Assembly (NCBI RefSeq): GCF_009914755.1
Contig: NC_060935.1
Length of the DNA stretch: 64,000 nucleotides
Source of the DNA: the human T2T-CHM13v2.0 reference genome, Homo sapiens
Reading direction: 5' to 3' (one strand)
In this document: piece by piece, positions 801 to 41,951 of the stretch
Position numbering within the stretch: position 1 is the stretch's first letter
Layout: each line of letters starts with the position of its first letter
Position numbers and translations under genes: made by a program
The notes under the pieces: model-generated
What the model was told of the DNA's origin: nothing
What the model saw: only the letters and a program-made list of their open reading frames with translations
The model's database searches: none

Positions 801-1239
801 CTTTTACTCTTTCTTCTTTTGCTTGGGACTCAAATTATTTGTATGTTGTATTGCTTGATATTATTCTATATGTTTCTGAGACTTCATTTTTCCCTCTCTT
901 TGCTTCATTGTGGTCAGATTCTATTGCTGTGTCTGCACTTTCACTGATCTGTCATCTGAACTGCCTAATTTCCTGCTTGGGTTTTCATCCATTACAGAGA
1001 ATATAAGCAGTATGCTGTACAAAACTGCACGATGTACTTCCTCATTTCTCATCTCTTAGGGATCACTATCATACACTGTCTGTTTTCTATAGTCTAAAAC
1101 AGTTATTTTATAAATTGTTGGGGATTTTATTATTTTTTTGTTTAGTGAAAAAATATTTTTTTTTGGATGGAATGGAAATATTTCCTCAGTAGATTTTGAT
1201 AATAGTTTCATTATATTGATCTTCTGTTATAATTTCTAA

Positions 1240-2830
1240 CATTCATCTTTCTCAACAAATATTTATTGAGAATCTATTATGCTAGGCTTTAAAGAACTTG
1301 TCCTCAAGGAGCCAGCCTACTATACAGATTAAAAAATACTACGAAATAAGGCAGGGCTTGTAGCAGAAATGTTGAAAGGGTGCAGGTGGAGACCAAAGAG
1401 AAACATGGTGGTAATTTCAACAGAAATATATGTGATGCAGACAGAGATGAACAACTATTTTCCATGAGATGGTGTAACCAGACCAAAAAAGAGAAGTTTA
1501 TAAATGAGGTGTTTTTTTTCCTAAGATACAAACACTTTTAATTTGATATGTTGATTTCAGAAAGCTGAGATAAATTCTATATCCCTTAAGAAATTCCCTG
1601 GAAATACACACACACACACACCACCCTGACATAATACTTCCATTAAAGGTTTGGCAATATAGCTGAGGAAAATGTGTAAATAAATAAATTTAAAGAAGTC
1701 TTCTAGAACTGAGTAGGAAGGGATAAGTAAGTGTTGAATTTCAAGCACAGCAGAAAGAATGGCCAGTTCTACCTGAGCAAGCAGGAAATCTTGATTAGAA
1801 TATTGTTCATGTTTCTGATTCTAAAAATTTAATACTTCTTGGCTGGGTGGGTTGGTGAAATGTGTGGTGTTGATGGAATATTATGGGAAAACAAAATGAA
1901 AAGTCGTAGAGACATGAGTCAGGTTTCTGTGCTTTGTAATCTAGAAGAAAAGTTAAATGGAAAGAATTCAGAGTGTTGTGGAGATAAGAGGTGTTGTTAG
2001 AGATAGGACTGAAAAGTTTGCAAGAATTATTTGTGAGGGATTAAACATTATTTTGTGAGATTTTATTGACTGTTCATTAAGAACAGTGAGGTAAATGCAT
2101 TACTTCTAGATTTCTTTCTGAAACACAGGCAGAGATAGCAGTGCTCTTCACCAAAATTGTCAATACTAGAGTAGAAGGCTTGGTGGGTATGGAGTAAATT
2201 TAATTTCAGAATTTTTAGGCCTTTAATTCCTGAGAATATCCACTTAGAGAAATCCAGTGGACATTTTACATAATTTGCTACGGTTTATGGAAGAAGTTGT
2301 ACTAAAATATAGTTTGGAGATTTATCAACCACAGGTTGTTGCCAAAGTCATTAATGCAGATTAAATAATCCAGAAGAAATGTGAGAAGGAATAAAAGATG
2401 GAATACTAAGTAGCCTTGGGGAAAAAATAAAGAAGACTGAGAAAAACAAAAAGAAAATTGTCATAGGAGCCAAAGAAAGTGAGAATTTCTAGGAATATTT
2501 AACAGTGATACATACATAAAGGTAATGTGTGGAAAATGACAAGAAGAATCTGCTGGGCTTTGTAGTTAGAAGGTCAGAGGTAACATTTGATAAGTGGCGA
2601 GGTAAAAGACTAATTGAGATGACAATAGGAAGATCAGGTGATTGATAGAGACCAAGGCCAAAGACTAATCACTCTCCAGGAAATCTGGCTGTGAAGAGAA
2701 GAAGGATAAGATGGTATCCGAAGAGAGACACTGGGAGAAAATTATTGTTTTTAGTAGGTAAAACACTTAAATATATTTTTAGCCTCCTTGTAAGAACCAG
2801 TAGAGAGGGAAGAGTTGAAAATTTAGCAGG
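1240..2830 (-). mobile_element. Fragmented L2 LINE remnants
   Basis: L2 3'-end signature tcaacaaatatttattgag at ~1252; purine-rich L2-like segment at ~2200-2800; boundaries approximate. Confidence 0.55.
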
Positions 2831-2859
2831 AAATATTGTTAATGACAGTGTAGATATGG

Positions 2860-3300
2860 TAAGACTATCTCTTTCATACACAGCTAGTGGGTGTATAAAT
2901 TGGTATAATCTTTCTGAAAAGCAATTTGATAATGTGTGTAAAGAGCCTGAAAAATATAGTGTTTGACCCTGTAAGTCTACATATAGAATTCCACCCTGTA
3001 GATATAATCAGAGATGTAGATAAAGATTTATGTACAAAGATAATAATCACAGAATCATTTATAATAAGGAAAAAAGGAAACAATCTTTATGCTGAACAAA
3101 GAAGGCACAATTAAATAAATTATGGTGTATTCACAGAGTAGTCACAACCATTGTAAATGTTATTTTCAAAGAAAGACTTTCAAATTATTGGAGAAAATGT
3201 TCTTGTAATATATTTTGAGTGAAAAAATGAGAAACAAAAAAGCTGAATGCAGAGTGTAATCTAAATGTTGAAAACTAAAAAATAAAGATTTAAAGAAAAG
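2860..3300 (+). mobile_element. Ancient L1ME 3' fragment
   Basis: aaattggtataatctttctgaaaagcaatttg...tttgaccctgtaa resembles the L1ME ORF2-end/3'UTR. Confidence 0.6.
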
Positions 3301-5959
3301 ATACAGAAATTAGTAGAAGAACATTAGAAAATTGAGCAATGCCTCAGCCTTGACTTAAGGGTTCTAGATAACTACAGTGATCGAAGGGTTAGTTTTAGGT
3401 GCAGTATCATCTCTACCTAAATGAATGAAGAAATGGAAGGATATTTGTAGATATGGGGAAAGGAATGAAGAGAATTTTTTTCTGTTAAATGAACAGCAAA
3501 TCCTTCATCACCATCACCATCATCATTTTCAGGAACTCACAATATTAATATTTAGAGACACAAAATTTTGTGTCAGTTTTTATTCCATGTTTTTAATAAT
3601 CACAGTATTTTAGATAAGCAAACCAAGGCACAGCAAAGAAGAACCATACTCAAAGTTTTACACACTCTAGAAAATGGTGGATGTGAGATTCATACCCAAT
3701 TCACAGTCCAGTCGTGAGCCTTCTGCTGAGAGAGGAGTGGAGCAACATTGGGAAGGAGGGACTTAAAATGTATAGGGTAGTCACTGTGGGGACATTGAGG
3801 GGACTTGACCAGAAACAGGATGAAAGAGTTGGTTTAATGGTACTGAGGGTCTTATTAACATTACTTACTTGTAGGGCCACCAGTTCACAAAACCATGTGC
3901 TATAAATGAAGTAACCTGCCATGGTTCAGGAGAAAAAAAGAGAGAGGGTTACATTAATGAAAAGTTACAGTGTGTTCACTAGCAAAAAAAAAAAAAAAAA
4001 AAAGTAGGATTTGAAAACTTTGAAGATGTTGGCAATAAATGAAGCTGAATGGATCTAAGTTTAATATGGAACATTGGGTTTTTGTTTTATAGGGAGGTGA
4101 AGTAAAGGATAAAAAAAAGAATAGAGGGAGGAACTGCAGTACTTGCTGGGTCAGGGGCATAGTGAGAAGGACTGAATTGGAAAGTTGATACAATCTGTTG
4201 TCCTGGAAGAGATTGAGGACTTTGATGTTATATATATGGTCAGATAGTAAGATGAGCTATCTAAACATCTGTGAAAAAATGAATGACTAAATCATTCCTA
4301 TGATGACAGAAACCAGAAGCAGAGGAAGACTGTGAAGCATGTTTCAAATTGCTTAGTAGATGAAAATGAAGATCTTCTTCATCTAGAAAATCTCTAAATG
4401 ATGAAAATGTGAGGTAGAGGAGAGGTGGTAAAGTGGGATGACTTCAACTTCAAAGGATGAAAGGGCTTTGCATGCAGACCAATGAACTAAAGATCTACAA
4501 TCAGCAAAGGGCACAGGGATAATGGCCATGGACTTTATGACATTGGAGTATAGAGAGAAGGATTTTCTTGGAGAAGAAGCAGGTTATATTCTTATGTTCA
4601 GAACATTGTCTGATGCACAGTTAATGCTGAATGCCCACTTATCTAACCTCATAGACAAATAAAAGGCTTTATTAATGTGGCCAGAGCAGGAGATAGAGGG
4701 ATTCTGTGAAGAGGTGGAGGATGTGATGGGATAGGGGTTGTTTACTTTGGAACATAGGTTGCAGAGAGTATAATGGAAAGTATTTGTAAAGAAGACCAGA
4801 AATGGACAAAAGAACATGATGGGAAAATGCACAGAAAAAAAATAAATGGACAAGCATCAGGTAAATGTTTGTTGATTGGAAGAACTAGTGTTCAGTCCAG
4901 TGAATGAGAGTGACAGGAATAAAGGATATGACTCATAATGACTATCCTAAGGTGCCCTGGGACAGAGCTAACTAAGCCCTAAGCAGTCTGAGAACCCTAG
5001 CAATGTTAAGAGCCTGCAGCCTTTTCTCAGCACTCAAATTGCAAAACATGGAAAAAGCTTTATGATGACTTTTGAAGCTAATTCTGCCTTGGTTATTGGA
5101 GGTGATTAGCTGCCACTTGCCAAAGAATCGTTGGCTTGAGGTAGCTATGGTGCCAGGTTTCTTTTCTGACATGAATTGGGTATAATAAAGCAGCTTGGTG
5201 TGGGGGAACTGCTCTTAAATAGTACTCCTTATAAATGCGAGAGCATTGATTTTAAGAATAAACTGGGGATAAATTTGGCTATTTTCTCCAATTCTTAGCC
5301 CTCCATGGTGTAGAGGTAGGCATCTGGTTGCTAGAATCCTAAAGTCTCAAGTTCTGTAACTAGCCTATTTCTATTTTCTGCTCCAATAACTTAGTAAGGC
5401 CATTGAGGTGGTACACCGTCTCTTCATTAGCTTGCATGTCAGTGAGATGTATATAAAAATCTGAAAATATATATTAGTTCTGAGGCAAATAGGTGAACGA
5501 GATAAATCACTGGGGAAAGGAAACACCCCTAGCTCCCTCACATTGTGATTGGGGTAATATAATTTTCTACAGGAAGAATTATTGACATGTAGTGAAATGT
5601 GAGATCAATATCTGTTATTTACTGAATAAATTTACTAGAGTCATTGGTAAACATCTTCAGTAATAAATTCCCCAAATTCTTGGATGGATTTGTGTTTTAA
5701 TTAACATTCTTAGCTGGAAATTAGAGGCAGATGGGAAGGGGTGTTAATAATTCCATAATTGATAACAATCACTTATGAAACAGAGAAGCAACTCATAGCT
5801 CACTAATTATTTCAGAGAGTAAAACACTCCAAATTGTTAGGAGAAGCGCTCAGTGATACAAGAAGTCAGTGAATGAGGACTGGGTAGAGGCAACAGCCCT
5901 GGGTTTGAATTTTGGACCCACCACTTATTAGTAGTTTCTACCTTGTTTCTACCTCAAGG

Positions 5960-27682: not shown

Positions 27683-28469
27683 CCATTAGGCCTCTATAAT
27701 CTTAATAGTATAAGAGTGCCTGGCACTGCCTTTCCAACATTAAGTATGTTAGGCAATTCCAACAGGTACTTATAGTATAGTATAGCTGCTCTGTATTGAT
27801 GGTGCAAGTCAAGGCCAGATTATTTAAGTGTCTGAAAATAAGATAAAATTATCCTTTTGTTAATGCTTAAGCACTTCAATTGCTCAACTACCTAGAGACC
27901 GAATCACTTTACCATGAATATAGTCGACAGAACTGCTTCCAGGTAAAGCTAATGTGTTCTGTACACATACAATATACTCCCCAAAAAGGATACATTTTCT
28001 TGTTTGCAGTACCTGTCAATATATGCTTCCTGCAAAGTACGTCTTCAACAAGCTAACTAAATGAACTGCTACACAGGGTTAAATGTAGGTCTAGATCTCC
28101 CAAATCCAATGATTTTAATATTGTCATTGTCTGAATCAAGAATGATGTTATCTGCAGTAATTATCCTGTTCGTTTAGCAATTAAAAATGCTAGTAAAACA
28201 GTTTTGCAATATGTATCAAGATTTTTGAAAATCTTTACACCTTTGGAGTCAGTGTAAAAGCTTAATTTAAAGAGGATGCCTAGAAAATAGTGTGAAATAT
28301 AAACAAATATTTTTATATAAAATATGAATTATGCTATTAGTAATTAGTTCAAAGAGTGAACAAATAGAAGTAAACAAGTATTTAGCATAAGGTGTAATTA
28401 AGTAAAATAGGATACCCAAATAATGGAATATTGTGTGGTTATTATACCCATCCAAAAGAAAAATGAAAT

Positions 28470-28497
28470 TATATATAGTATATATATACATATACAA

Positions 28498-28528
<31 letters not shown>

Positions 28529-28641
28529 AAATATTCCATTATTTGGGTGGTTATAACCACCCAATATTCCAATAACCAAACAATATCCCATTATTTGGGT
28601 ATCCTATTTTACTTAACATATATATATATATATATATATAT
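28470..28641. repeat. (TA)n/(CA)n microsatellite split by a templated inverted insertion
   Basis: (TA)n at ~28510-28528 and 28618-28641 flanking 28530-28616. Confidence 0.9.
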
Positions 28642-29144
28642 GTCAAATGTGACCTCATTATATAAAATATCCTAAGTATTTAGCCAGCGTTAATAGTGGT
28701 TGTCTTGAGTAGCGGAACTTAAGGATAATTTTTTTCCCATGCTATATTTTTTTGTATAAATTTCCAAACTTTCCATAGTTTTTGTTTTATAATGAAATGT
28801 CCCTATTGCTGTTTTTCCTAAAACAAACAAAAAAAAATTGCTGACACAATAAATTTAAGCAACATAAACACCTAAGGAAAAAGGTGAAATTCATCTCCTT
28901 ATGCCCCGAGAAACCACCACCATTTTGGTGACCGTTCTTATATGCATCATCTTTTTAAAAAATATTGACATATACTATACACTTTTACAATAAAGGTATT
29001 TACATTGCTTTATGGTGCTCAACTTTATTCAATTTTTTTTCTCCTTACCTCTCCCCTTACATTTATTCTTCCACATCTTCATGTAATTTAACCAACTCCC
29101 CATGTAACCACCTAATATATAAATTTACAAATGCACACTCATAA

Positions 29145-29290
29145 GAATATATATGTAGGCTTGTGTTTATGTATGTATACATATATGGATATGTATATTT
29201 GTGTATAGTAGATGATATGCATACATATCCATATATACATATATATGTGTTATATATACATATGTACATTACATATGTACATATATGTAT
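29145..29290. repeat. Degenerate TA/TATG low-complexity repeat
   Basis: Alternating purine-pyrimidine atatatgt/atacatat units. Confidence 0.8.
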
Positions 29291-29299
29291 GAATAAATA

Positions 29300-29378
29300 T
29301 AAAATTATAGAAATCATTTGAAATTGTCAATTTTCAACTGCTTTGACTTACAAACATCTCAATTTCATAGGATATATT
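29300..29378. mobile_element. MADE2-like mariner MITE
   Basis: catttgaaattgtc...tttgacttacaaa...caatttcatag: gaaattg/caatttc inverted repeats, ~80 bp. Confidence 0.6.
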
Positions 29379-30849
29379 CTCCAAATCAACAGACTGATTT
29401 GTTTTGATGGTATTAAATGATTTCAGAAATATGACTCCTTACATGCAGTTAGTACACATGTCTTCCATGGAGAGGAAACAAAAAAGCAAGTAGATAGTCA
29501 CAGTTCACATAGATTTCCTAGGAGAGAACACTGGAATATAACCAAGAAGTGACCAGAAACACTGAAAGCAAAGGAGAGGGAAATAGGCAGGCTGGTTGGC
29601 CAGGACTGACTAGGAACTGGGAGAAGCTCCTGGACATAAGGAAAGGGTGAGTGAGTGACGTCAGGGTTTCATATACTTGCCATGTATAATCCTAGCCATG
29701 GAAAAGCTCCTCAAGCCTCACAGCCTTGAGACTAATATAGGCAGCTGCCTAGTGATTGTGCCAAGCTTCAGAAAAGGAATTCACACAGTCCCACAGATTT
29801 CCAAACCCTGAGCAGCTGCAACATAGTGCCATTCTGAGAGCTCAGCCCTCAAAGACTACCAAGGAGAAAGAGGGGAAGCCAGGCACTTTCATCCACCCTA
29901 AAGACAAATCTCACCTCTCCCACTGCTGTGAGCTGTTGTGGGACCAAGATGTGAGGAAATCACAGGCCCCATAGCTGTCTGCCTATTCTCCTCCCACTGA
30001 GAGTGGCCCCCATCCTCCTCAGTGGCAGGCCTCCAATCCTGCACCAGTCCAAGTTCACAGCCCTTAGAGGACTGTGTCCTCCACTGGGTTCAACACTGCT
30101 GTTGCCACTGCCAGACCAGGAAGGGAGAAGGGAAGCTAGGCAATGTCGTACATTCCAAGTACAAATACTACCGCCTCTGCTTGCGAGCTGCTGTAGGACC
30201 GAGGTGGGAGAAAATCACAAGTTCTACAAATGCCTGCTTAAGCTGCTCCCACTGAGAGTGGCCCCACCCTCCCTGGAGGCCAGTCTGCAGCACAGTCACC
30301 ACTGCACCCACCTGAACATTCTGCCAATAATCTGGGGACCATCCCACTCCTGCCTATTACAGACAGTGCCAGAACATCCTACCAGAAGGCCTGAGGACAA
30401 GCCTGCTGTCCTGGTCCCACCCCCACAATACTTAAGCATGACATCCAGGCGCCTGCAGATTGCCCAGCCCAATCCACATGTGTTGGCACCTAAACACTTT
30501 TCCCAGGGTTTGAGGTTATGCCAACCCAACTGCTGATACTGCCACAGCTAGTACCTACCTGTACAAGCCACTTGCAGGCCACAGGGATGCCCTGACCAGC
30601 CCATCACAGCCACTGCCAACATCACCGTGGACCACTGGGGTTCCGGTGGGTTGCCTCACCACTACTTCTGCCATTGCCCACAAAATACCCATAGACCAGG
30701 GGCCCTAAAACCCACCCAAATTTCTGGACCATTCCTGATACTACCAACATCCAAGCAAGCTACCTGGAAGCCCAAGAATCAACCTGCCTGGACTTACGAA
30801 CACTAGACTCACCATACACCACTCTGGAGCTCACAGACAGGCATGCTCA

Positions 30850-31122
30850 GCTGACTGCTGCCACCACAGGGACCCGAAGACTGGCCCACCTGGTATCCTA
30901 GTCCTCAGCAAAACTTCACCACAGCCTCCACTAGTAACCATACCCTAAGCCACTGAGGAAATTGCAGATATCACCAATGCTGCTTATAGGCCAGGAAATC
31001 ATACAAAGACTGAACTACTGCACAAATCCAGAATCAAAGCTGAAGGCCCCACCCACCAACAACATATCTACATCTTCAGCAAAAAGCCTTCTCCTATGAA
31101 AGCAAGTTCAAAAAAATAGAAG
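30850..31122 (+). repeat. Inverted repeat arm A (donor, L1 5'UTR)
   Basis: Exact reverse complement of 32936-33208, checked base by base. Confidence 0.97.
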
Positions 31123-32935
31123 TGACTGTTATACAAGCTATGCAGATGTCAGCATAAGGAAACCAAAAACATGGAAAAGAAAGGAAATATGACACTTGGA
31201 AAGAGACACAGTAATTCTCTGGCAATGGATCCCAATCAGAAATTCATAAAATTTTGGATAAAGAATTCAAAATACTGATTTTAAAGAAGCCCAAATGAGA
31301 CACAAGAGAATTCTGAAAAATGATACAGAGAATATAAAAAACAATTCAGGATATGAATTTAAAAATTACCAAAGGGATGGATATTTTTAAAAAGAAGCAG
31401 AAATCTTGGAACTGAAGAAATCATTGAATGAAATAAATACATTTGGAAACTTTGATAATAGTCTAGATCAAGCAGAAGAAAGAATCTCAATAGTTGAAGA
31501 CAAGTCTTTTGAAATAATCTAGTCAGACAAAAATAAAAAGGCCTAGAAAAGAATGAACAAAGACTTTGTGGTGTTTGGGACACCATAAACCAACTGATTA
31601 TTGAAATTATCAATGTCTCCATGGACAAAGAGATAATGAAGGGGTTCCAAAACCTATTAATGAAATAATGGATGGAAACCACAAGTCAGGCAAAAGATTT
31701 AGATATCCAGATATAGGAAGATCAAAGATCACCAAACTGACAAAACTCCGTAAAGGTCTTCTCTGTGACACATTATAGTCAAACTGTCTAAAGCCAAAGA
31801 AAAAGAGAGTTCTAAAAACAGCAAGAGAAAAGCATCTAGTCACCTATAGAGGAACCACCATCAGACTAACTGGGGATTTCTCAGCACAATGCAGGAGAGA
31901 ATGAGATGACATATTCAATGTGCTGAAAGAAAAAACTGACAGAGAAGGATAATATATCCAGTAAAATTACCCTTCATAAGTGAGGGATAAAGTCTTTCCC
32001 AGAGAAGCAAATGCTTAGGGAATTTATCACCACAAGATGAGCCCTACTAAAATTGATTAAGGGAGCCCTACACCTGGAAGCAAAAAAACAACATTTACCA
32101 ACATGAAAACTCATAAAACTGTAATACTGACAGGTAAACCATACACACAAATGAGAAAGAGGAAGGGCTCAAGTGGTTCCACTACAGAAAATCACCAAAT
32201 CACAATGACAAATAATAAGATAAAAAGAAATGAACAAAGAACATACAAACAACCAGAAAACAATGAACAATATGACAAAAACCCTGACAGATCATTAATA
32301 ACCTCGAATTTAAATGGATTAAATTCTGCACTTAAAATATATAGATTGGCTGAATGGATTTTAAAAAGCTATAATCCAACTATATGCTACCTATTAGAAA
32401 TGCACTTTACCTGTAAGGACACAAGTAAACTGAAAATAAAAGGATCAAAAAAGATATTCCACTCAAACAGAAGCTAACAACCGGGAGGAGTAGCTATACT
32501 TATTTCAGATAAAACAGACTTTACATCAAAAACAATGTAAAAAAGACAGAGAATATCATTACATAATGATAAAAGAATCAATGCAAAAATAGAACATAAC
32601 AATTCTAAATATATATACATACAACACTGGAACACCCAGATTCATAAAGCAAATATTACTAGATCTAAAGAGAGAAACTGACTTCAATTCAGAAATACTT
32701 TAAAAGCCTATTCTCACCATTAGACAGATTCTCTAGACAGAAAATTGACAATGAAATCATGGATTTAAATTGGACTTTAGACCAAGTGGATCTGACAGAC
32801 ATTTACAGAACATTTTATTGAACAACTACAGAGTATACATTCGTCTCATTAACAAATAGAACATTCTCCAGGATAGACCGTATGTTAGGCAACACAAAAA
32901 TTCTCAACCAATTAAAAAAAAAAAGAAATAAACTT

Positions 32936-33208
32936 CTTCTATTTTTTTGAACTTGCTTTCATAGGAGAAGGCTTTTTGCTGAAGATGTAGATATGTTGTT
33001 GGTGGGTGGGGCCTTCAGCTTTGATTCTGGATTTGTGCAGTAGTTCAGTCTTTGTATGATTTCCTGGCCTATAAGCAGCATTGGTGATATCTGCAATTTC
33101 CTCAGTGGCTTAGGGTATGGTTACTAGTGGAGGCTGTGGTGAAGTTTTGCTGAGGACTAGGATACCAGGTGGGCCAGTCTTCGGGTCCCTGTGGTGGCAG
33201 CAGTCAGC
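32936..33208 (-). repeat. Inverted repeat arm B (inserted copy within L1 ORF2)
   Basis: 273/273 identity to 30850-31122 in reverse orientation; ORF2 resumes at cagaccacagtgg. Confidence 0.97.
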
Positions 33209-33995
33209 AGACCACAGTGGAAGAAAACTAGAAATCAATACCAAGAGGAACTTTGAAAACTATACAAATACAAAGAAATTAAACAACGTATTCCTAAACA
33301 ACCATTGGGTCAATGAAGAAATTAAGATGGAAATCAAAAAATGCCTTTAAAACGTGACAATGGGAAAATAACATACCAAAACCTGTGGGATACAGCAAAG
33401 GCAGTGCTAAGAGAAAATTATATAGCAATAAATGCCTACATCAAAAAAAAAGAAAGATTTCAAATAATAACCTAATGATGCACCTTAAGGAACTGGAAAA
33501 GCAAGAACACACCAAGCACAAAATTAGCAGAAGGAAATTAGATCATTTAAATAATAAAGATCAGAGAAGAACTAAATGAAATACAGACTTAAATATAAAG
33601 AATCAATGAATAGCTCGTTCTTTAAAAAGGAACAAAATTGAAAAACCACTCACTAGACTAACCAAGAGAAGAGAAAATCCAAAGAAAAAAAATCAGAAAT
33701 GAAAAAGGAGACTTTACAAGTGATAGCACAGAAATACAAAAGATCATCAAAGACTATTGTGAACAGTTATACACTAACAAACCCCAAAACATAGAGGAAA
33801 TGGATAAATTCCTGGAAACATACAACCTACCAAGACTGAATGAGGAAGAAATAGAAACCTGAACAGACCAATAATGAGTAGTCAGATTGAATCAGTAATA
33901 TAAAGTCTCCTAACAAAAGCCCAGGACCTGGTGGATTCACAGCTGAAGTCTGCTAAATGTGTAGAGAACTAACACCAATCTTCCTGAAAGTATTT

Positions 33996-33996
<1 letters not shown>

Positions 33997-34037
<41 letters not shown>
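33997..34037 (+). repeat. Pure A41 mononucleotide run
   Basis: 41 uninterrupted A inside L1 ORF2. Confidence 0.95.
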
Positions 34038-34038
<1 letters not shown>

Positions 34039-35749
34039 AGAAGAAAAGGGAACTCTCCCTAACTTGTTATCTGAGGCCAACATTACCCTGATATCAAAAC
34101 CAGACAAGGATACATCCAAAAAAGAAAACTATAGGCCAATATCCCTGATGAAATTAGATGTAAAAATCTTCCACAGAATAATACTAGCAAGCTGAATCCA
34201 ACAGTACGTGAAAAGGAAAATACACCATGACCAAGTGGGATTTACACCAGGACTGCAAGGATGATTCAACATATGCAAATCAATAAACATGTTACATCAC
34301 ATCAGCAGAATGAAGGACAAAAACCAAATGATCATCTCAATAGACACAGAAAAATCATTTGATAAAATGTAACATCCCTTTGTGATAAAAACTCTCAACA
34401 TCTAGGAATAGAAGGAACATACCTCAAAATAATCATGCCATATATGACAAACCCACAGCTGACTTACATCATAGTGAGTGGGGAAAAGCTGAAAATTTTT
34501 CTTCCGAGATCTGTAACAAGACAAAGATGCCCACTTACATCAATCCTATTTATCATAGTACTGGGAGCCCTCAGCAAAACAATCAGACAAGAAAAAGAAA
34601 AAAAATATCCACATCAGAAGAGAGGAAGTCAGATTTTCTCTGTCTGCTGATAAGATCTAACATCTAGAAAAACCTAAAGACACCACAAAAAAATCTCCTA
34701 CATTTGATATATTCAGTAAAGCTGTAGGAGAGAAAATTAATATACAAAAATCAGTAGCATTTCTATACAACAATGATGAACTAGCAGAGGAAAAAAATCA
34801 AGAAAGCAATTTTATTTACAATAGCTCCAAAAAATATATACTCAGGAATTAATTTTACCAATGAGGAAAAGATATCTGTAAGGAAAACTGCGAAACACTG
34901 ATGAAAGAAATTGAAGAGGACACAAACAAATTGAAAGACATTACATGCTTATAGATCAGAAGAATTAATATTATTATAATGGCCATACTGTCCAAAGAAA
35001 TATACAGATTCAATTCAATCCCTATCGAAATACCAATGTCATTTTTCACAGAATTCAAAAAATCAATTCTAAAATGTGTATGGAACCAAAAAAAAAAAAA
35101 AAAAAGCCAGAATAGCCAAAGCAACCTTGAACAAAAAGAACAAAGCTAGAAGCATCACACTACCTAACTTCAAAATATATTACAAGGCTATAGTAACCAA
35201 AACAGCATGGTTTTGTTGTAAACACAGACACATAGGACAATGGAACAGAATAGAAAGGCCAGAAATAAATCCATGTATTTACAGCCAACTGATTTTTAAT
35301 AAAGGCACCAAGAATATATACTGAGGAAAGAACACGGTCCTCAATAAATGGTGCTGGGAAAATTGGATATCCATATGCAAAAGAATGAAACTAGATACCC
35401 ATTTCACCCCACATACAAAAATAAACTCAAGATCAATTAAGGACTTAAACATAAGACCTGAAACTATAAAACTGCTATAAAAAACATAAGGAAAACACAT
35501 CAAAATGTCAGTCTAAGAAAAGATTTCATGGCTAAGACCGCAACAGCACAGACAACTATAACAAAAATAGACAAATGGGACTATGTTAAACTGAAAAGCT
35601 TCTATACAGCAAAAGAAACAATCAACAGAGTGAAAGACAATCTGTTGAATGGGAGAAACTATTTGCAAACTGTCTATCCAAGGGACTAACATTCAGAATA
35701 TTCAAGGAACTCAAACAACTCAACAATAATATAACAAATAGTCCCATTA

Positions 35750-37540
<1,791 letters not shown>

Positions 37541-39624
37541 AAGTTGGCTAAGCCCATAATAGACATTTCTCAAAAGAAGACATACAAATGGCCAAGAGAT
37601 GTATGAAAAAATGCTCAATATCACTAAGCATCATGAAATGAAAATCAAAATCACAATAAAGTGTCATCTTATCTTACTCCAGTTAGAATGGCTATTATTA
37701 AAAAGACAAAAAGCAACAGATGATAGTGAGTATGCAGAGAAAAGGGAACTCATACACTGTGGGTGGGAATGTAAATTAGTAAAACCACTATGGAGAACAG
37801 TACACTTTCCTCAAAAACCTAAAAGCAGAACCACCATATGATACAGCCAGCCCACTACGGGGTATTTATCCAAAAGAAAATAAATCAGGATATCAAAAAG
37901 ATACCTACATGTGCATATTTAGCACTTAACTATTCACAATAGCAAAGATAGGGAATCAACCTAAGTGTCCATTGACAGACAAATGAATAAAGTAAATGTG
38001 GCATGTATACACTATGAAGTACTATTTCTCCATAGAAAAGAATGAAATCATGTAATTTGAAACAACATGGATGGAACTGTAGGTCATTATGTTAAGTGAG
38101 ACAAGCCAGGCACAGAAAATTAGATACCACATATTCTCACTTATGTGTAGGAGCTAAAAAAAAAAAATTGATCTTCTGGAGATAGAGTATAGAATGATAG
38201 ATACTAGAGGATGTGAAGTGTCTATGGGTGGGATGGGGAGCAGATTAAGAAAGGTTGATTAGTGAATACAAACATATAGTTACGTAGAAGAAATATGCCC
38301 CAATATTTGACAGCAGATAGGGTGACTATAGTTAGCAAGAATGTATTATGTATTTAAAAGAAGTTTGAAGAGAGGACTTGAAATGTTACCAACATAAAGA
38401 AATGACAAATAGTGTAGGTGATAGATACCACAAATATTCTAACTTGATCATTATACATTCTATGCATGTAACAAACATTCACTCATACCCTATAAATATG
38501 TAAAATATTTTGTATCAGTAAAATATTGATATGCCGTGGTGTGGATCTATCACAATTTACTCCTTTCCCTTATTAATAGGCATTCACTTTTTATTTTTTT
38601 CTCAGCACAAACAACACCCCAATAATCATTGTTGTACATATATTTTTCATAACCAGTGTTTCTATAGCTAAGCAATATATTTTCAGGTGTGTGATATTGA
38701 TTTTTACCAAAGCCATTTACATATAGTATTAACAAAAATGTATTTAATAATTTTTAGTAGGTAGGTCTTGGCACGTTAAGTAGTGATCTAATGTTTCTAT
38801 TTTACAAAAAATTTTTGTTTGGAAGAATTAACAAATTTTATCAAGTGTTTCGTAAACATCTATTGTTTTATAAACTGTTTAATATATTATTCTTTCAAAA
38901 GAGCACTTGTAACGCATAAACACATATTAGGAGACATAAAAATGAACACTCACTAACAAGTCATCCAATTTCAAAATAAAAGAAATTACTCATAATTTTG
39001 AAGTTATCCTAGTGCTACTCCCTTATTTCATCCCCTTTTGTCACTTATCCTTGGAGGCAAAATTTTTCCAGAATTGCATATTTATTATTCCTTCACATTT
39101 TAAAATATGTAATTTTAGCACACACATGTGTGTATTTCAACAAATATGTTATAATACATTTTACTATTTTTTGAGCTTTATGAACATGGTATTATACTAT
39201 ATATTTTGGGAAATATATATGTGCGTGACTCATCAACTTATTCTACTCCTAAATGTATACTCAAAAGATATTCATATATATATGAACCAAGAGACATGAG
39301 GATGACATGTATCAACAGTAATTTTTATAACTGCAATAATTTGAAAATAACAAATTGTGAAATATTCATGCAATGTAATATTATACAGTATTGTAAACAA
39401 ATCAACAGTTCAAACAACGTAGATAAATCTTATAAACATTGTTTTCATTGAAAAAAACAAGTCAAAAAAGTTGTTCCTATTGACTTTTCTCCCATCATAC
39501 ATCAATATTTATTCTTTTTTAGAAAAATTAGTGATGTAGAGCCATCTTTTTCATCACTTGATCATCCTACTAGGTTACAGTATGGTTTTTCTCTTGGTAT
39601 TCTTCTGTTTAAAAACTCTCATGA

Positions 39625-41334: not shown

Positions 41335-41443
41335 TGTTCTTTTCTTTGTATTTCTACTTTATACATTTTAGCTTTCAAATTTATTCTCTCCCTACTTTCT
41401 TGTTTCATTTCAAATTGTTTTTAACTTATTAAGAAGTAAACCA

Positions 41444-41951
41444 TTCCTGTGTCTAAGCGTTCTCATTGTTCAATTCCCACCTATGAGTGAGGACATGCAG
41501 TGTTTGGTTTTTTTGTCCTTGCAATAGTTTGCTGAGAATGATGGTTTCCAGCTTCATCTATGTCCCTACAAAGGACATGAACTCATCATTTTTTATGGCT
41601 GCATAGTATTCCATGGTGTATATGTGCCACATTTTCTTAATCCAGTCTATCATTGTTGGACATTTTGGGTTGCTTCCAAGTCTTTGCTATTGTGAATAGT
41701 GCCGCAATAAGCATACGTGTGCATGTGTCTTTATAGCAGCATGATTTATAATCCTTTGGGTATATACCCAGTAATGGGATGGCTGGGGTGGGGGGAGGGG
41801 GGAGGGATAGCATTAGGAGATATACCTAATGTAAATGACGAGTTAATGGGTGAAGCACACCAACATGGCACATGTATACATATGTAACAAACCTGCACGT
41901 TGTGCACATGTACCCTAGAACTTGAAGTATAGTTACAAAAAATATTTTTAA
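41444..41951 (+). mobile_element. Short 5'-inverted L1PA5-like element (41444-41787 antisense, 41784-41951 sense)
   Basis: Antisense 3'UTR/ORF2 end joined through shared tggg to the sense G-rich 3' end; TSD aagaagtaaacca (41431-41443) / aaaaagtagacca (41952-41964); TT/AAGA site. Confidence 0.93.

What the first reader, a model, noticed from the sequence alone, without database searches (positions are those of the whole stretch)
30850..33208. Perfect 273-bp inverted duplication inside a heavily decayed L1
Seen: 32936-33208 is the exact reverse complement of 30850-31122 (273/273 by manual comparison), with a 1813-bp spacer. The copy is 5'UTR sequence placed antisense in ORF2. It has no poly(A) and no TSD, so it is not a retrotransposition product. 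From the L1 consensus as I recall it (...atcttct|cagaccacagtgg...), the insert sits between tcttct and cagacc, with ~5 nt microhomology on the left (cttct) and 1 nt on the right. That fits a replication template switch (FoSTeS/MMBIR). The host L1MA is full of stops and indels, so zero divergence means the event is very recent or the arms are kept identical by gene conversion. Inference: the arms could mediate recurrent NAHR inversion of the 1.8-kb spacer. If transcribed, they would form a perfect 273-bp dsRNA stem (ADAR/MDA5 substrate) in a window that has no inverted Alu pairs.
Basis: partly seen in the sequence, partly recalled or inferred. Interest (0 to 1): 0.8.

Follow-up and report, generated by a model that had tools for sequence, protein, structure and literature searches.

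The report
Self-copied inverted patch in dead L1
A long-dead L1 retrotransposon in an intron of NELL1 carries a perfect, back-to-front copy of 267 bases of its own leader inside its second gene, a clean scar of a DNA-copying slip that is a known kind of mutation, unusually large but probably without function.

Summary
Window 32936-33208 is the exact reverse complement of 30850-31122 (273/273, spacer 1813 nt).

In the whole assembly only these two arms match at 100%. The next best L1 copy is 80% identical.

Arm A is the source. It is collinear with 20 related L1 copies and lies upstream of the ORF1 remnant.

Arm B interrupts ORF2 in the codon equivalent to Ser228 of the endonuclease domain. In 14 of 14 related copies the two flanks are directly adjacent...TCTTCT|CAGACC....

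The first 5 nt (CTTCT) and last 1 nt (C) of arm B are native ORF2 bases, so 267 nt are new. There is 5-nt and 1-nt microhomology, and no target duplication, deletion or poly(A) tail.

Arm A carries 38 substitutions and 5 indel columns against the majority of 20 relatives, and arm B shares all of them. The copy was therefore made late, under about 3-11 Myr ago if gene conversion played no part.

Best reading: one microhomology-primed template switch, an MMBIR/FoSTeS-type templated inverted insertion. This is a known signature at an unusual size and distance.

Inversion and dsRNA effects are plausible but untested. MDA5 sensing is unlikely because the site is intronic and the stem is under 300 bp. 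No other genome was available to date the event.

The parts
30231..38522 (+). Host element: an old, decayed full-length-type L1, sense to NELL1. It may start as far 5' as about 29443. It is interrupted by arm B and by a younger L1 at 35751-37542.
   Evidence: blastn against 20 related L1 loci gives collinear matches at 66-80% identity from 30231 (29443 in 4 loci) to 38522; no long open frame remains.
30850..31122 (+). Arm A, the source copy: native 3' part of the L1 5'UTR. It ends 48 nt upstream of an ATG at 31171 that is a candidate ORF1 start.
   Evidence: exact arm; alignments to related copies run through it without a break (for example L023, window 30740-32921); both arm ends read like the relatives; the ATG and ORF1-like frames lie downstream.
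31118..31122 (+). Donor-side microhomology AGAAG, native to the 5'UTR.
   Evidence: most related copies read ...GAAGAAG followed by (T/C)(G/A)AC at this place.
31123..32935 (+). Spacer (1813 nt) in native orientation. It holds the 5'UTR tail, the ORF1 remnant, the inter-ORF stretch, and the ORF2 endonuclease domain up to about residue 227.
   Evidence: window 31779-31901 matches LINE-1 ORF1p chains (best E 0.0013); window 32061-32474, residues 75-136, matches ORF2p endonuclease residues 6-66 (E 4.7e-16); the spacer is collinear with the relatives.
32936..32940 (+). Acceptor-side microhomology CTTCT. These are native ORF2 bases that are also the first 5 nt of arm B.
   Evidence: 14 of 14 related copies carry ...TCTTCT-like bases directly followed by CAGACC-like bases; 6 of 14 read exactly TCTTCTCAGACC.
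32941..33207 (-). The newly templated DNA (267 nt): an antisense copy of 30851-31117.
   Evidence: This stretch is absent from all 14 related copies aligned across the site.
33208..33208 (+). 1-nt microhomology: the C of native CAGACC, which is also the last base of arm B. The insert splits the codon equivalent to Ser228 of human ORF2p (SDHS motif).
   Evidence: window 33114-33347, residues 32-76, aligns to ORF2p residues 228-272 (E 5.7e-6), and residue 32 is the codon at 33207-33209.
32936..33208 (-). Arm B as a whole (273 nt identical to arm A).

Best explanation
A single templated inverted insertion was made at the DNA level, long after the L1 had died.

Proposed sequence of events:
1. A 3' DNA end in the ORF2 remnant, ending ...TCTTCT-3' on the + strand, lost its proper template. 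This end was either a nascent strand at a stalled or collapsed fork, or a resected break end.
2. It annealed by 5 nt (CTTCT:AGAAG) to the + strand 1.8 kb upstream, at the end of the element's own 5'UTR.
3. It copied 267 nt there. Because the template had the same polarity as the primer, the copy is antisense.
4. It returned to its original place using 1 nt of homology (C) and carried on.

The mirror-image order, with the - strand entering by the 1-nt homology and returning by the 5-nt one, fits equally well.

The result is an exact 273-bp inverted repeat with no loss or duplication of target bases. This is the signature ascribed to microhomology-mediated template switching (MMBIR/FoSTeS, or fold-back 'snap-back' synthesis at a resected break).

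The event is young. With no gene conversion it is under about 6-11 Myr old at 95%, or under about 4% of the element's age by its own clock. It most likely has no function. Its consequences are latent: a perfect 273-bp stem in NELL1 pre-mRNA and a substrate for inversion of the 1.8-kb spacer.

What is shown: the structure, the source and target, the microhomologies, and the late timing relative to the element's decay. What is inferred: the enzymology, the strand and order of the switches, the absolute age, and the lack of function.
For: - **Exact arms.** 273 of 273 positions match and similarity stops sharply at both edges.
- **Local copy.** Of 728 candidates in the assembly, 40 were scored. 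Only the two arms are 100% identical; the best other copy is 80%.
- **Late copy.** Arm A differs from the majority (at least 60%) of 20 related copies at 38 substitution and 5 indel columns out of 270, and arm B shares all of them.
- **Arm A is native and arm B is the insert**.
- **Empty site.** In 14 of 14 related copies the target flanks are adjacent. That gives 5-nt and 1-nt microhomology, no target-site duplication, no deletion and no poly(A) tail.
- **One template only.** No second templated patch of 11 nt or more occurs in either 56-nt flank, apart from A-runs and one 13-nt direct match at 27744-27756 that was not followed up.
[quoted passage not shown] About 100 germline events were found per person. 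Passages of PMC7954356 describe template switches in great apes that generate perfect inverted repeats.
Against: - Only one haplotype could be examined, so neither the age nor the reality of the insertion in other people could be checked.
- The catalogued events of this signature are much smaller and closer. MMBSearch looks for templates within 100 bp and inserts up to read length. The great-ape study covers tens to hundreds of nucleotides. A 267-nt copy from 1.8 kb away lies outside those ranges.
- One of the two junctions has only 1 nt of homology, which chance gives in 1 of 4 cases.
- Perfect identity could also be kept by arm-to-arm gene conversion. The weak-to-strong substitution test was inconclusive: 13 W>S against 18 S>W in the arm, compared with 9:24 and 18:16 in the flanks.
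Confidence: 0.75

Rival explanations
1. The inverted duplication is old, made at or soon after the L1 inserted, and the arms have been kept identical by intrachromosomal gene conversion, as in larger palindromes.
For: Zero differences in 273 bp inside an element that is about 14-20% diverged from its relatives. Under concerted evolution both arms would share all 'private' changes, which is what is seen.
Against: - Identity is perfect right up to both junctions, and the junction microhomologies are still intact. Long-term conversion of a 273-bp tract would be expected to erode at the edges.
- There is no clear GC-biased substitution pattern in the arm against its flanks (small numbers, inconclusive).
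- 0 of 20 related L1 loci show anything similar.
- If the event had occurred during retrotransposition, a reverse-transcriptase jump to an antisense template would be required.
Confidence: 0.1
2. A free copy of the 5'UTR segment, such as a displaced flap or an Okazaki-size fragment from the sister chromatid, was captured in inverted orientation at a double-strand break by end joining. There was no primed synthesis at the site.
For: - The size (267-273 nt), the lack of target loss and the minimal homology at one junction (1 nt) are compatible.
- Donor and acceptor are only 1.8 kb apart.
Against: - The 5-nt junction homology is more than blunt ligation needs.
- Ligating a fragment with no loss of any target base at either side is less likely than primed copying. 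This point is inference.
- The sequence alone cannot separate this reading from the best explanation.
Confidence: 0.07
3. The insertion was RNA-templated. A reverse transcriptase copied the local transcript (NELL1 pre-mRNA or L1 read-through), which carries arm A in sense, primed by the broken DNA end ...CTTCT on AGAAG. This would be an endonuclease-independent, retrotransposition-like repair.
For: - The geometry is the same as in the best explanation.
- The L1 is sense to NELL1 (hub annotation), so such an RNA exists wherever NELL1 is transcribed.
- No target-site duplication and no poly(A) tail, which fits endonuclease-independent events. That fit is from recalled knowledge.
Against: - It needs germline transcription of this intron plus reverse-transcriptase activity at exactly this break.
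- A template only 1.8 kb away on the same DNA is explained more simply by physical proximity of DNA strands.
- Nothing in the sequence calls for RNA.
Confidence: 0.05
4. It is an assembly artefact in T2T-CHM13, and arm B does not exist in the cell line's DNA.
For: None from the tools. Only one assembly could be read.
Against: - The junctions are biologically tidy: the target is restored exactly and there is microhomology at both sides.
- The arms are single-copy in the assembly apart from each other, so a mis-join between repeats is not expected.
- Artefactual palindromes from long-read libraries are read-scale, not a clean 267-nt patch. This last point is recalled knowledge.
Confidence: 0.03

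Closest known systems
MMBIR-type templated insertions (MMB-TI; Osia et al. 2021, PMC8421209, passages read)
   Same: The insert is an inverted copy of a nearby template and is flanked by microhomology. It lacks a target-site duplication and occurs as a germline variant without a larger rearrangement.
   Different: The insert here is 267 nt and its template is 1813 nt away. The published search tool looks within 100 bp and at inserts no longer than a sequencing read.
Short-range template switches of the four-point model in great apes (Walker et al. 2021, PMC7954356, passages read)
   Same: Reverse-oriented copying creates a perfect inverted repeat in the descendant sequence.
   Different: Those events span tens to hundreds of nucleotides and usually replace sequence. 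This one is a pure insertion with a kilobase-scale jump.
L1 twin priming (5'-inverted L1 insertions)
   Same: An L1 piece lies in inverted orientation next to L1 sequence. A probable real example sits in the same window at 35751-37542.
   Different: Twin priming happens during retrotransposition and gives a 3' end with an A-tail and target-site duplication. Arm B has neither. It copies the 5'UTR of its own decayed host, including the host's 38 private substitutions.
Inverted retrotransposon pairs that mediate inversions (Lee et al. 2008, PMC2603318, passages read; Giner-Delgado et al. 2019, PMC6748972, passages read)
   Same: Inverted homologous arms flank a kilobase-scale spacer. 28 of 49 retrotransposon-mediated human/chimpanzee inversions used Alu pairs, which are about the size of these arms, with mean inverted sizes of 0.8-1.9 kb.
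   Different: The arms here are two parts of one element made by duplication, not two insertions. In the 45-inversion human set the NAHR arms ranged from 654 bp to 24.2 kb, longer than 273 bp. No inverted allele is known here.
Long, highly paired genomic dsRNA candidates (dsRNAscan preprint PMC11838218, section 10 read; Barak et al. 2020, PMC7006430, abstract, methods section 8 and Table S8 searched)
   Same: An intramolecular inverted repeat of LINE origin inside a gene's pre-mRNA, 100% paired.
   Different: 273 bp is below the >300 bp cut of both catalogues. The arms are intronic, so the RNA is expected to be removed by splicing.

Membership tests
Microhomology-mediated templated inverted insertion (MMBIR/FoSTeS signature) | [quoted passage not shown] | tested here: met
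   exact reverse complement with the template 1813 nt away. This is further than the 100 bp operational limit in PMC8421209.
Microhomology-mediated templated inverted insertion (MMBIR/FoSTeS signature) | Microhomology between donor and acceptor at both junctions. | tested here: met
   5 nt (CTTCT/AGAAG) and 1 nt (C/G), each native to both donor and acceptor as judged from 14 and 20 related copies. The 1-nt junction is weak on its own.
Microhomology-mediated templated inverted insertion (MMBIR/FoSTeS signature) | It arises during replication or break-induced replication. | not testable with these tools
   Sequence alone cannot separate fork switching from fold-back synthesis at a resected break.
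L1 retrotransposition product (TPRT, including twin priming) | 3' poly(A) tail and target-site duplication. | tested here: not met
   no A-tail at either end of arm B. The target bases are neither duplicated nor lost. The A-run left of the insert lies where related copies have A/T-rich ORF2 sequence.
L1 retrotransposition product (TPRT, including twin priming) | The copy derives from an active source element, not from the decayed host. | tested here: not met
   arm B shares all 38 substitutions and 5 indel columns private to arm A. The best other genomic copy is 80% identical.
Palindrome kept by arm-to-arm gene conversion | The arms are far more alike than their age allows, with the structure shared by distant species. 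| not testable with these tools
   No primate or other human assembly is held. The W>S bias test was inconclusive.
Inversion-mediating inverted repeat (NAHR) | Inverted arms of high identity and sufficient length. | tested here: inconclusive
   Identity is 100%. The 273-nt length matches Alu-size arms known to mediate inversions, but it is below the 654 bp minimum of the 24 NAHR inversions in PMC6748972.
Inversion-mediating inverted repeat (NAHR) | Both orientations of the spacer are observed. | not testable with these tools
   In this haplotype the spacer is in the native L1 orientation. No other haplotype is available.
Long, highly paired dsRNA / putative MDA5 substrate | >300 bp and >96% paired. 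| tested here: not met
   273 of 273 positions pair in the minimum-free-energy fold (duplex -564.6 kcal/mol). The length is below the 300 bp cut.
Long, highly paired dsRNA / putative MDA5 substrate | Present in a mature, cytoplasmic transcript. | tested here: not met
   The hub annotation shows no NELL1 exon in the window, so both arms are intronic.
   No repeat library is held. Pfam gave 0 hits for 17 ORF pieces. Divergence from the majority of related copies is 14% in the arm and 16-20% in its flanks, which says only that the element is old.

The most novel reading that the evidence does not exclude
This may be one visible example of a class that current catalogues under-count: mid-size (hundreds of nt), kilobase-range inverted templated insertions. 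Such events create perfect hairpin-forming repeats from nothing inside genes. They fall outside the search ranges of the tools built for this signature (template within 100 bp, or tens to hundreds of nt). Complete assemblies would let them be counted, dated and tested as sources of new intronic dsRNA (ADAR hyper-editing, small RNAs) and of small recurrent inversions. For this locus the specific version is that the insertion is specific to the human lineage or still polymorphic, and that its stem is edited in tissues expressing NELL1.
Probability: 0.2. Interest if true: 0.5.

Novelty: new member of a known kind. Interest (0 to 1): 0.3.

Why it matters
The locus is an unusually clean natural record of a template switch. 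The donor, the acceptor, both microhomologies and the untouched target can all be read, and the decayed host element gives an internal clock.

It shows that the inverted templated-insertion signature extends to 267 nt copied from 1.8 kb away. That is beyond what the dedicated detection tools scan for.

It also shows how a perfect inverted repeat can appear in a gene's intron without any new transposon insertion. By itself it is most likely a neutral scar with no effect on NELL1.

Tried and rejected
- **Pfam on 17 open-frame pieces of the old and young L1.** 0 families. The anatomy was established by sequence search of solved structures instead. One ORF1 piece found nothing.
- **Rfam on 29000-38500.** 0 families at gathering score.
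- **Evidence that another human reference carries the repeat.** Table S8 of Barak et al. 2020 has 8 chr11 rows and none at this locus, and NELL1 is not mentioned. The table only lists structures over 300 bp, so this says nothing about a 273-bp stem. The supplementary tables of the dsRNAscan preprint were not opened.
- **Gene-conversion footprint (weak-to-strong bias).** Inconclusive.
- **Complex multi-template event.** No second templated patch of 11 nt or more was found in the junction flanks; the scan gave only A-run matches and one 13-nt direct match at 27744.
- **Retrotransposition or twin priming as the origin of arm B.** Rejected: no tail, no target-site duplication, and arm B shares the host's private mutations.
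- **Tandem monomer array in the 5'UTR.** TRF found none.
- **Print searches.** Four full-text searches returned no paper about this locus. None of them used the gene name or the locus as a search term. They returned no listed paper describing an L1 that carries an inverted copy of its own 5'UTR.

Full report
**Observation.** A script comparison of the window shows that 30850-31122 is the exact reverse complement of 32936-33208 (273 of 273), and similarity stops at both edges. The repeat finder reports the same pair as 279 nt at 99% with 1813 nt between the arms, because it extends 6 nt with mismatches. Two controls put this in context. None of 20 related L1 loci (166 kb) holds an inverted repeat of at least 80 nt at 97% or more. 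The 64-kb window holds only one other inverted repeat of at least 80 nt at 90% or more.

**What the two arms are.** I searched the window's own assembly with arm A. Of 728 first-look candidates, 40 were scored. Only the two arms match at 100%; the next best copy is 80% identical and the rest are 76-80%. I fetched 8.3 kb around each of the 20 best other copies and compared them with window 28000-39000 by blastn.
- Arm A lies inside uninterrupted collinear alignments. In L023, for example, window 30740-32921 aligns to 1201-3410. It is therefore native sequence of an old L1 on the + strand.
- Arm B matches the same part of the relatives in reverse orientation.
- The L1 sequence to the left and right of arm B corresponds to neighbouring positions in the relatives.

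Sequence searches of solved structures fix the anatomy.
- Window 31779-31901 matches LINE-1 ORF1p (best E 0.0013).
- Window 32061-32474 matches ORF2p endonuclease residues 6-66 (E 4.7e-16).
- The frame running out of arm B (33114-33347) matches ORF2p residues 228-272 from its residue 32 onward (E 5.7e-6).

So arm A is the last part of the 5'UTR, ending 48 nt before an ATG at 31171. The spacer holds the ORF1 remnant and the endonuclease domain. Arm B splits the codon equivalent to Ser228, just before the D-H-S of the SDHS motif. Pfam found nothing in 17 frame pieces and all frames are broken, so the element is long dead. The family name L1MA could not be tested.

**The junctions.** I aligned window 32850-33290 with the corresponding stretch of the 14 related copies that have matches on both sides.
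- In 14 of 14 the bases flanking the insert are directly adjacent, and 6 of 14 read exactly TCTTCTCAGACC.
- The window reads ...AAACTTCTTCT, then the insert, then CAGACCACAG....
- The first five bases of arm B (CTTCT, 32936-32940) and its last base (C, 33208) are therefore native ORF2 bases that happen to match the ends of the donor.
- The donor ends are native too. Most of the 20 relatives read ...GAAGAAG before (T/C)(G/A)AC at the 3' end of arm A, and ...CTCAG at its 5' end.
- Net new DNA is 267 nt (32941-33207), with 5-nt and 1-nt microhomology.
- No target base is lost or duplicated and there is no A-tail.
- The 56-nt flanks contain no second templated patch of 11 nt or more, apart from A-runs and one 13-nt direct match at 27744-27756 that was not followed up. 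This looks like a simple one-template event.

**Timing.** Arm A differs from the majority (at least 60%) of the 20 relatives at 38 substitution and 5 indel columns out of 270. A second, wider alignment gives 37 substitutions. Arm B shares every one of these changes, so the copy was made after essentially all of the element's decay.
- With zero differences in 267 nt, the 95% upper bound on the age is 11.2 Myr at 0.5e-9 per site per year and 5.6 Myr at 1e-9. These rates are from general knowledge, not from a call.
- By the element's own clock the bound is 3.9% of its age. That is about 2-4 Myr if the element is 60-100 Myr old, an age that is an assumption.
- All these bounds assume no gene conversion between the arms.

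**Mechanism.** The geometry fits a primer-template switch. A + strand 3' end ...TCTTCT pairs through CTTCT with AGAAG on the + strand 1.8 kb upstream. It copies leftward for 267 nt, which makes the copy antisense, and then returns through a single C. The reverse order on the - strand fits equally well.

This is the signature described for MMBIR-type templated insertions. [quoted passage not shown] Passages of PMC7954356 describe short-range template switches that create perfect inverted repeats in great apes. The difference here is scale. Those studies search within 100 bp, or over tens to hundreds of nucleotides; here 267 nt were copied from 1813 nt away. Sequence alone cannot separate fork switching from fold-back synthesis on a resected break end, or from capture of a displaced copy.

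**Rivals.**
- *Old duplication kept identical by gene conversion.* This cannot be excluded from one haplotype. The untouched junctions argue mildly against it, and the weak-to-strong substitution test was inconclusive.
- *Retrotransposition or twin priming.* Rejected: there is no tail and no target-site duplication, and arm B shares the host's private mutations.
- *RNA-templated repair from the local transcript.* Possible in geometry, but nothing calls for it.
- *Assembly artefact.* Unlikely given the tidy junctions, but unchecked.

**Consequences.**
- *RNA stem.* The L1 is sense to NELL1 and no exon lies in the window (hub annotation), so both arms would be in one intron of the pre-mRNA. In the minimum-free-energy fold of the 2359-nt RNA, all 273 arm positions pair with their mirror partners, and the arm duplex alone scores -564.6 kcal/mol. 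Such a stem would be a plausible ADAR substrate.
- *MDA5.* The stem is shorter than the >300 bp cut used for putative MDA5 substrates, and it would be spliced out (section 10 of PMC11838218; Table S8 heading of PMC7006430). The MDA5 idea is therefore unlikely.
- *Inversion.* Alu-size inverted pairs mediated 28 of 49 retrotransposon-mediated human/chimpanzee inversions, with mean inverted sizes of 0.8-1.9 kb (passages of PMC2603318). The 24 NAHR inversions in a 45-inversion human set had arms of 654 bp to 24.2 kb (passages of PMC6748972). Inversion of the 1.8-kb spacer is thus possible but not shown. In this haplotype the spacer has the native orientation.
- *Other stems in the window.* The arms are not the only long stem-forming pair. 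37003-37347 and 41441-41787 are 94.5% complementary.

**Verdict.** It is a new, unusually large and long-range example of a known mutational signature, and most likely neutral. Left open because no other human or primate genome was available: its age, whether it is fixed, whether the spacer ever flips, and whether the stem is edited.

Noticed in passing
window 35751-37542: A younger L1 3' fragment is nested in the old L1, 94-97% identical to parts of loci L022 and L039. Its 5' part (35751-36607) is inverted relative to its 3' part (36594-37542), with about 14 nt of overlap in window coordinates at the inversion point. It has an A-rich tail ending near 37540 and a candidate target-site duplication AAGTTG at 35752 and 37541. 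This looks like a classic twin-priming insertion. The old L1 resumes at 37538.
   Followed up: partly
window 41441-41931 (with 37003-37521): This is a second young L1 3' fragment. 41441-41787 is inverted and 41784-41931 is direct relative to the nested L1 at 37003-37521 (94.5% and 93.3%), so this copy also has an internal inversion point. Together the two young L1 pieces form a 348-nt, 94.5% inverted repeat about 4.1 kb apart in the same intron.
   Followed up: partly
window 29858-30018 and 30115-30272: A direct repeat of about 160 nt (72% identity, 257 nt apart) lies in the far 5' part of the old L1's leader. Tandem Repeats Finder reports no array there. It may be an old internal duplication of the 5'UTR or a family feature.
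   Followed up: partly
window 33987-34046 and 32914-32924: Long A-runs (about 40 nt and 11 nt) lie inside the ORF2 remnant of the old L1. Related copies show shorter A/T-rich sequence at the 32914 site. These are probably slippage expansions rather than tails of inserted elements.
   Followed up: no
window 41316, 47791, 61701: Three matches to an Alu head motif (2-3 mismatches) were found, all on the - strand. No opposite-strand Alu head was found by this crude scan.
   Followed up: no
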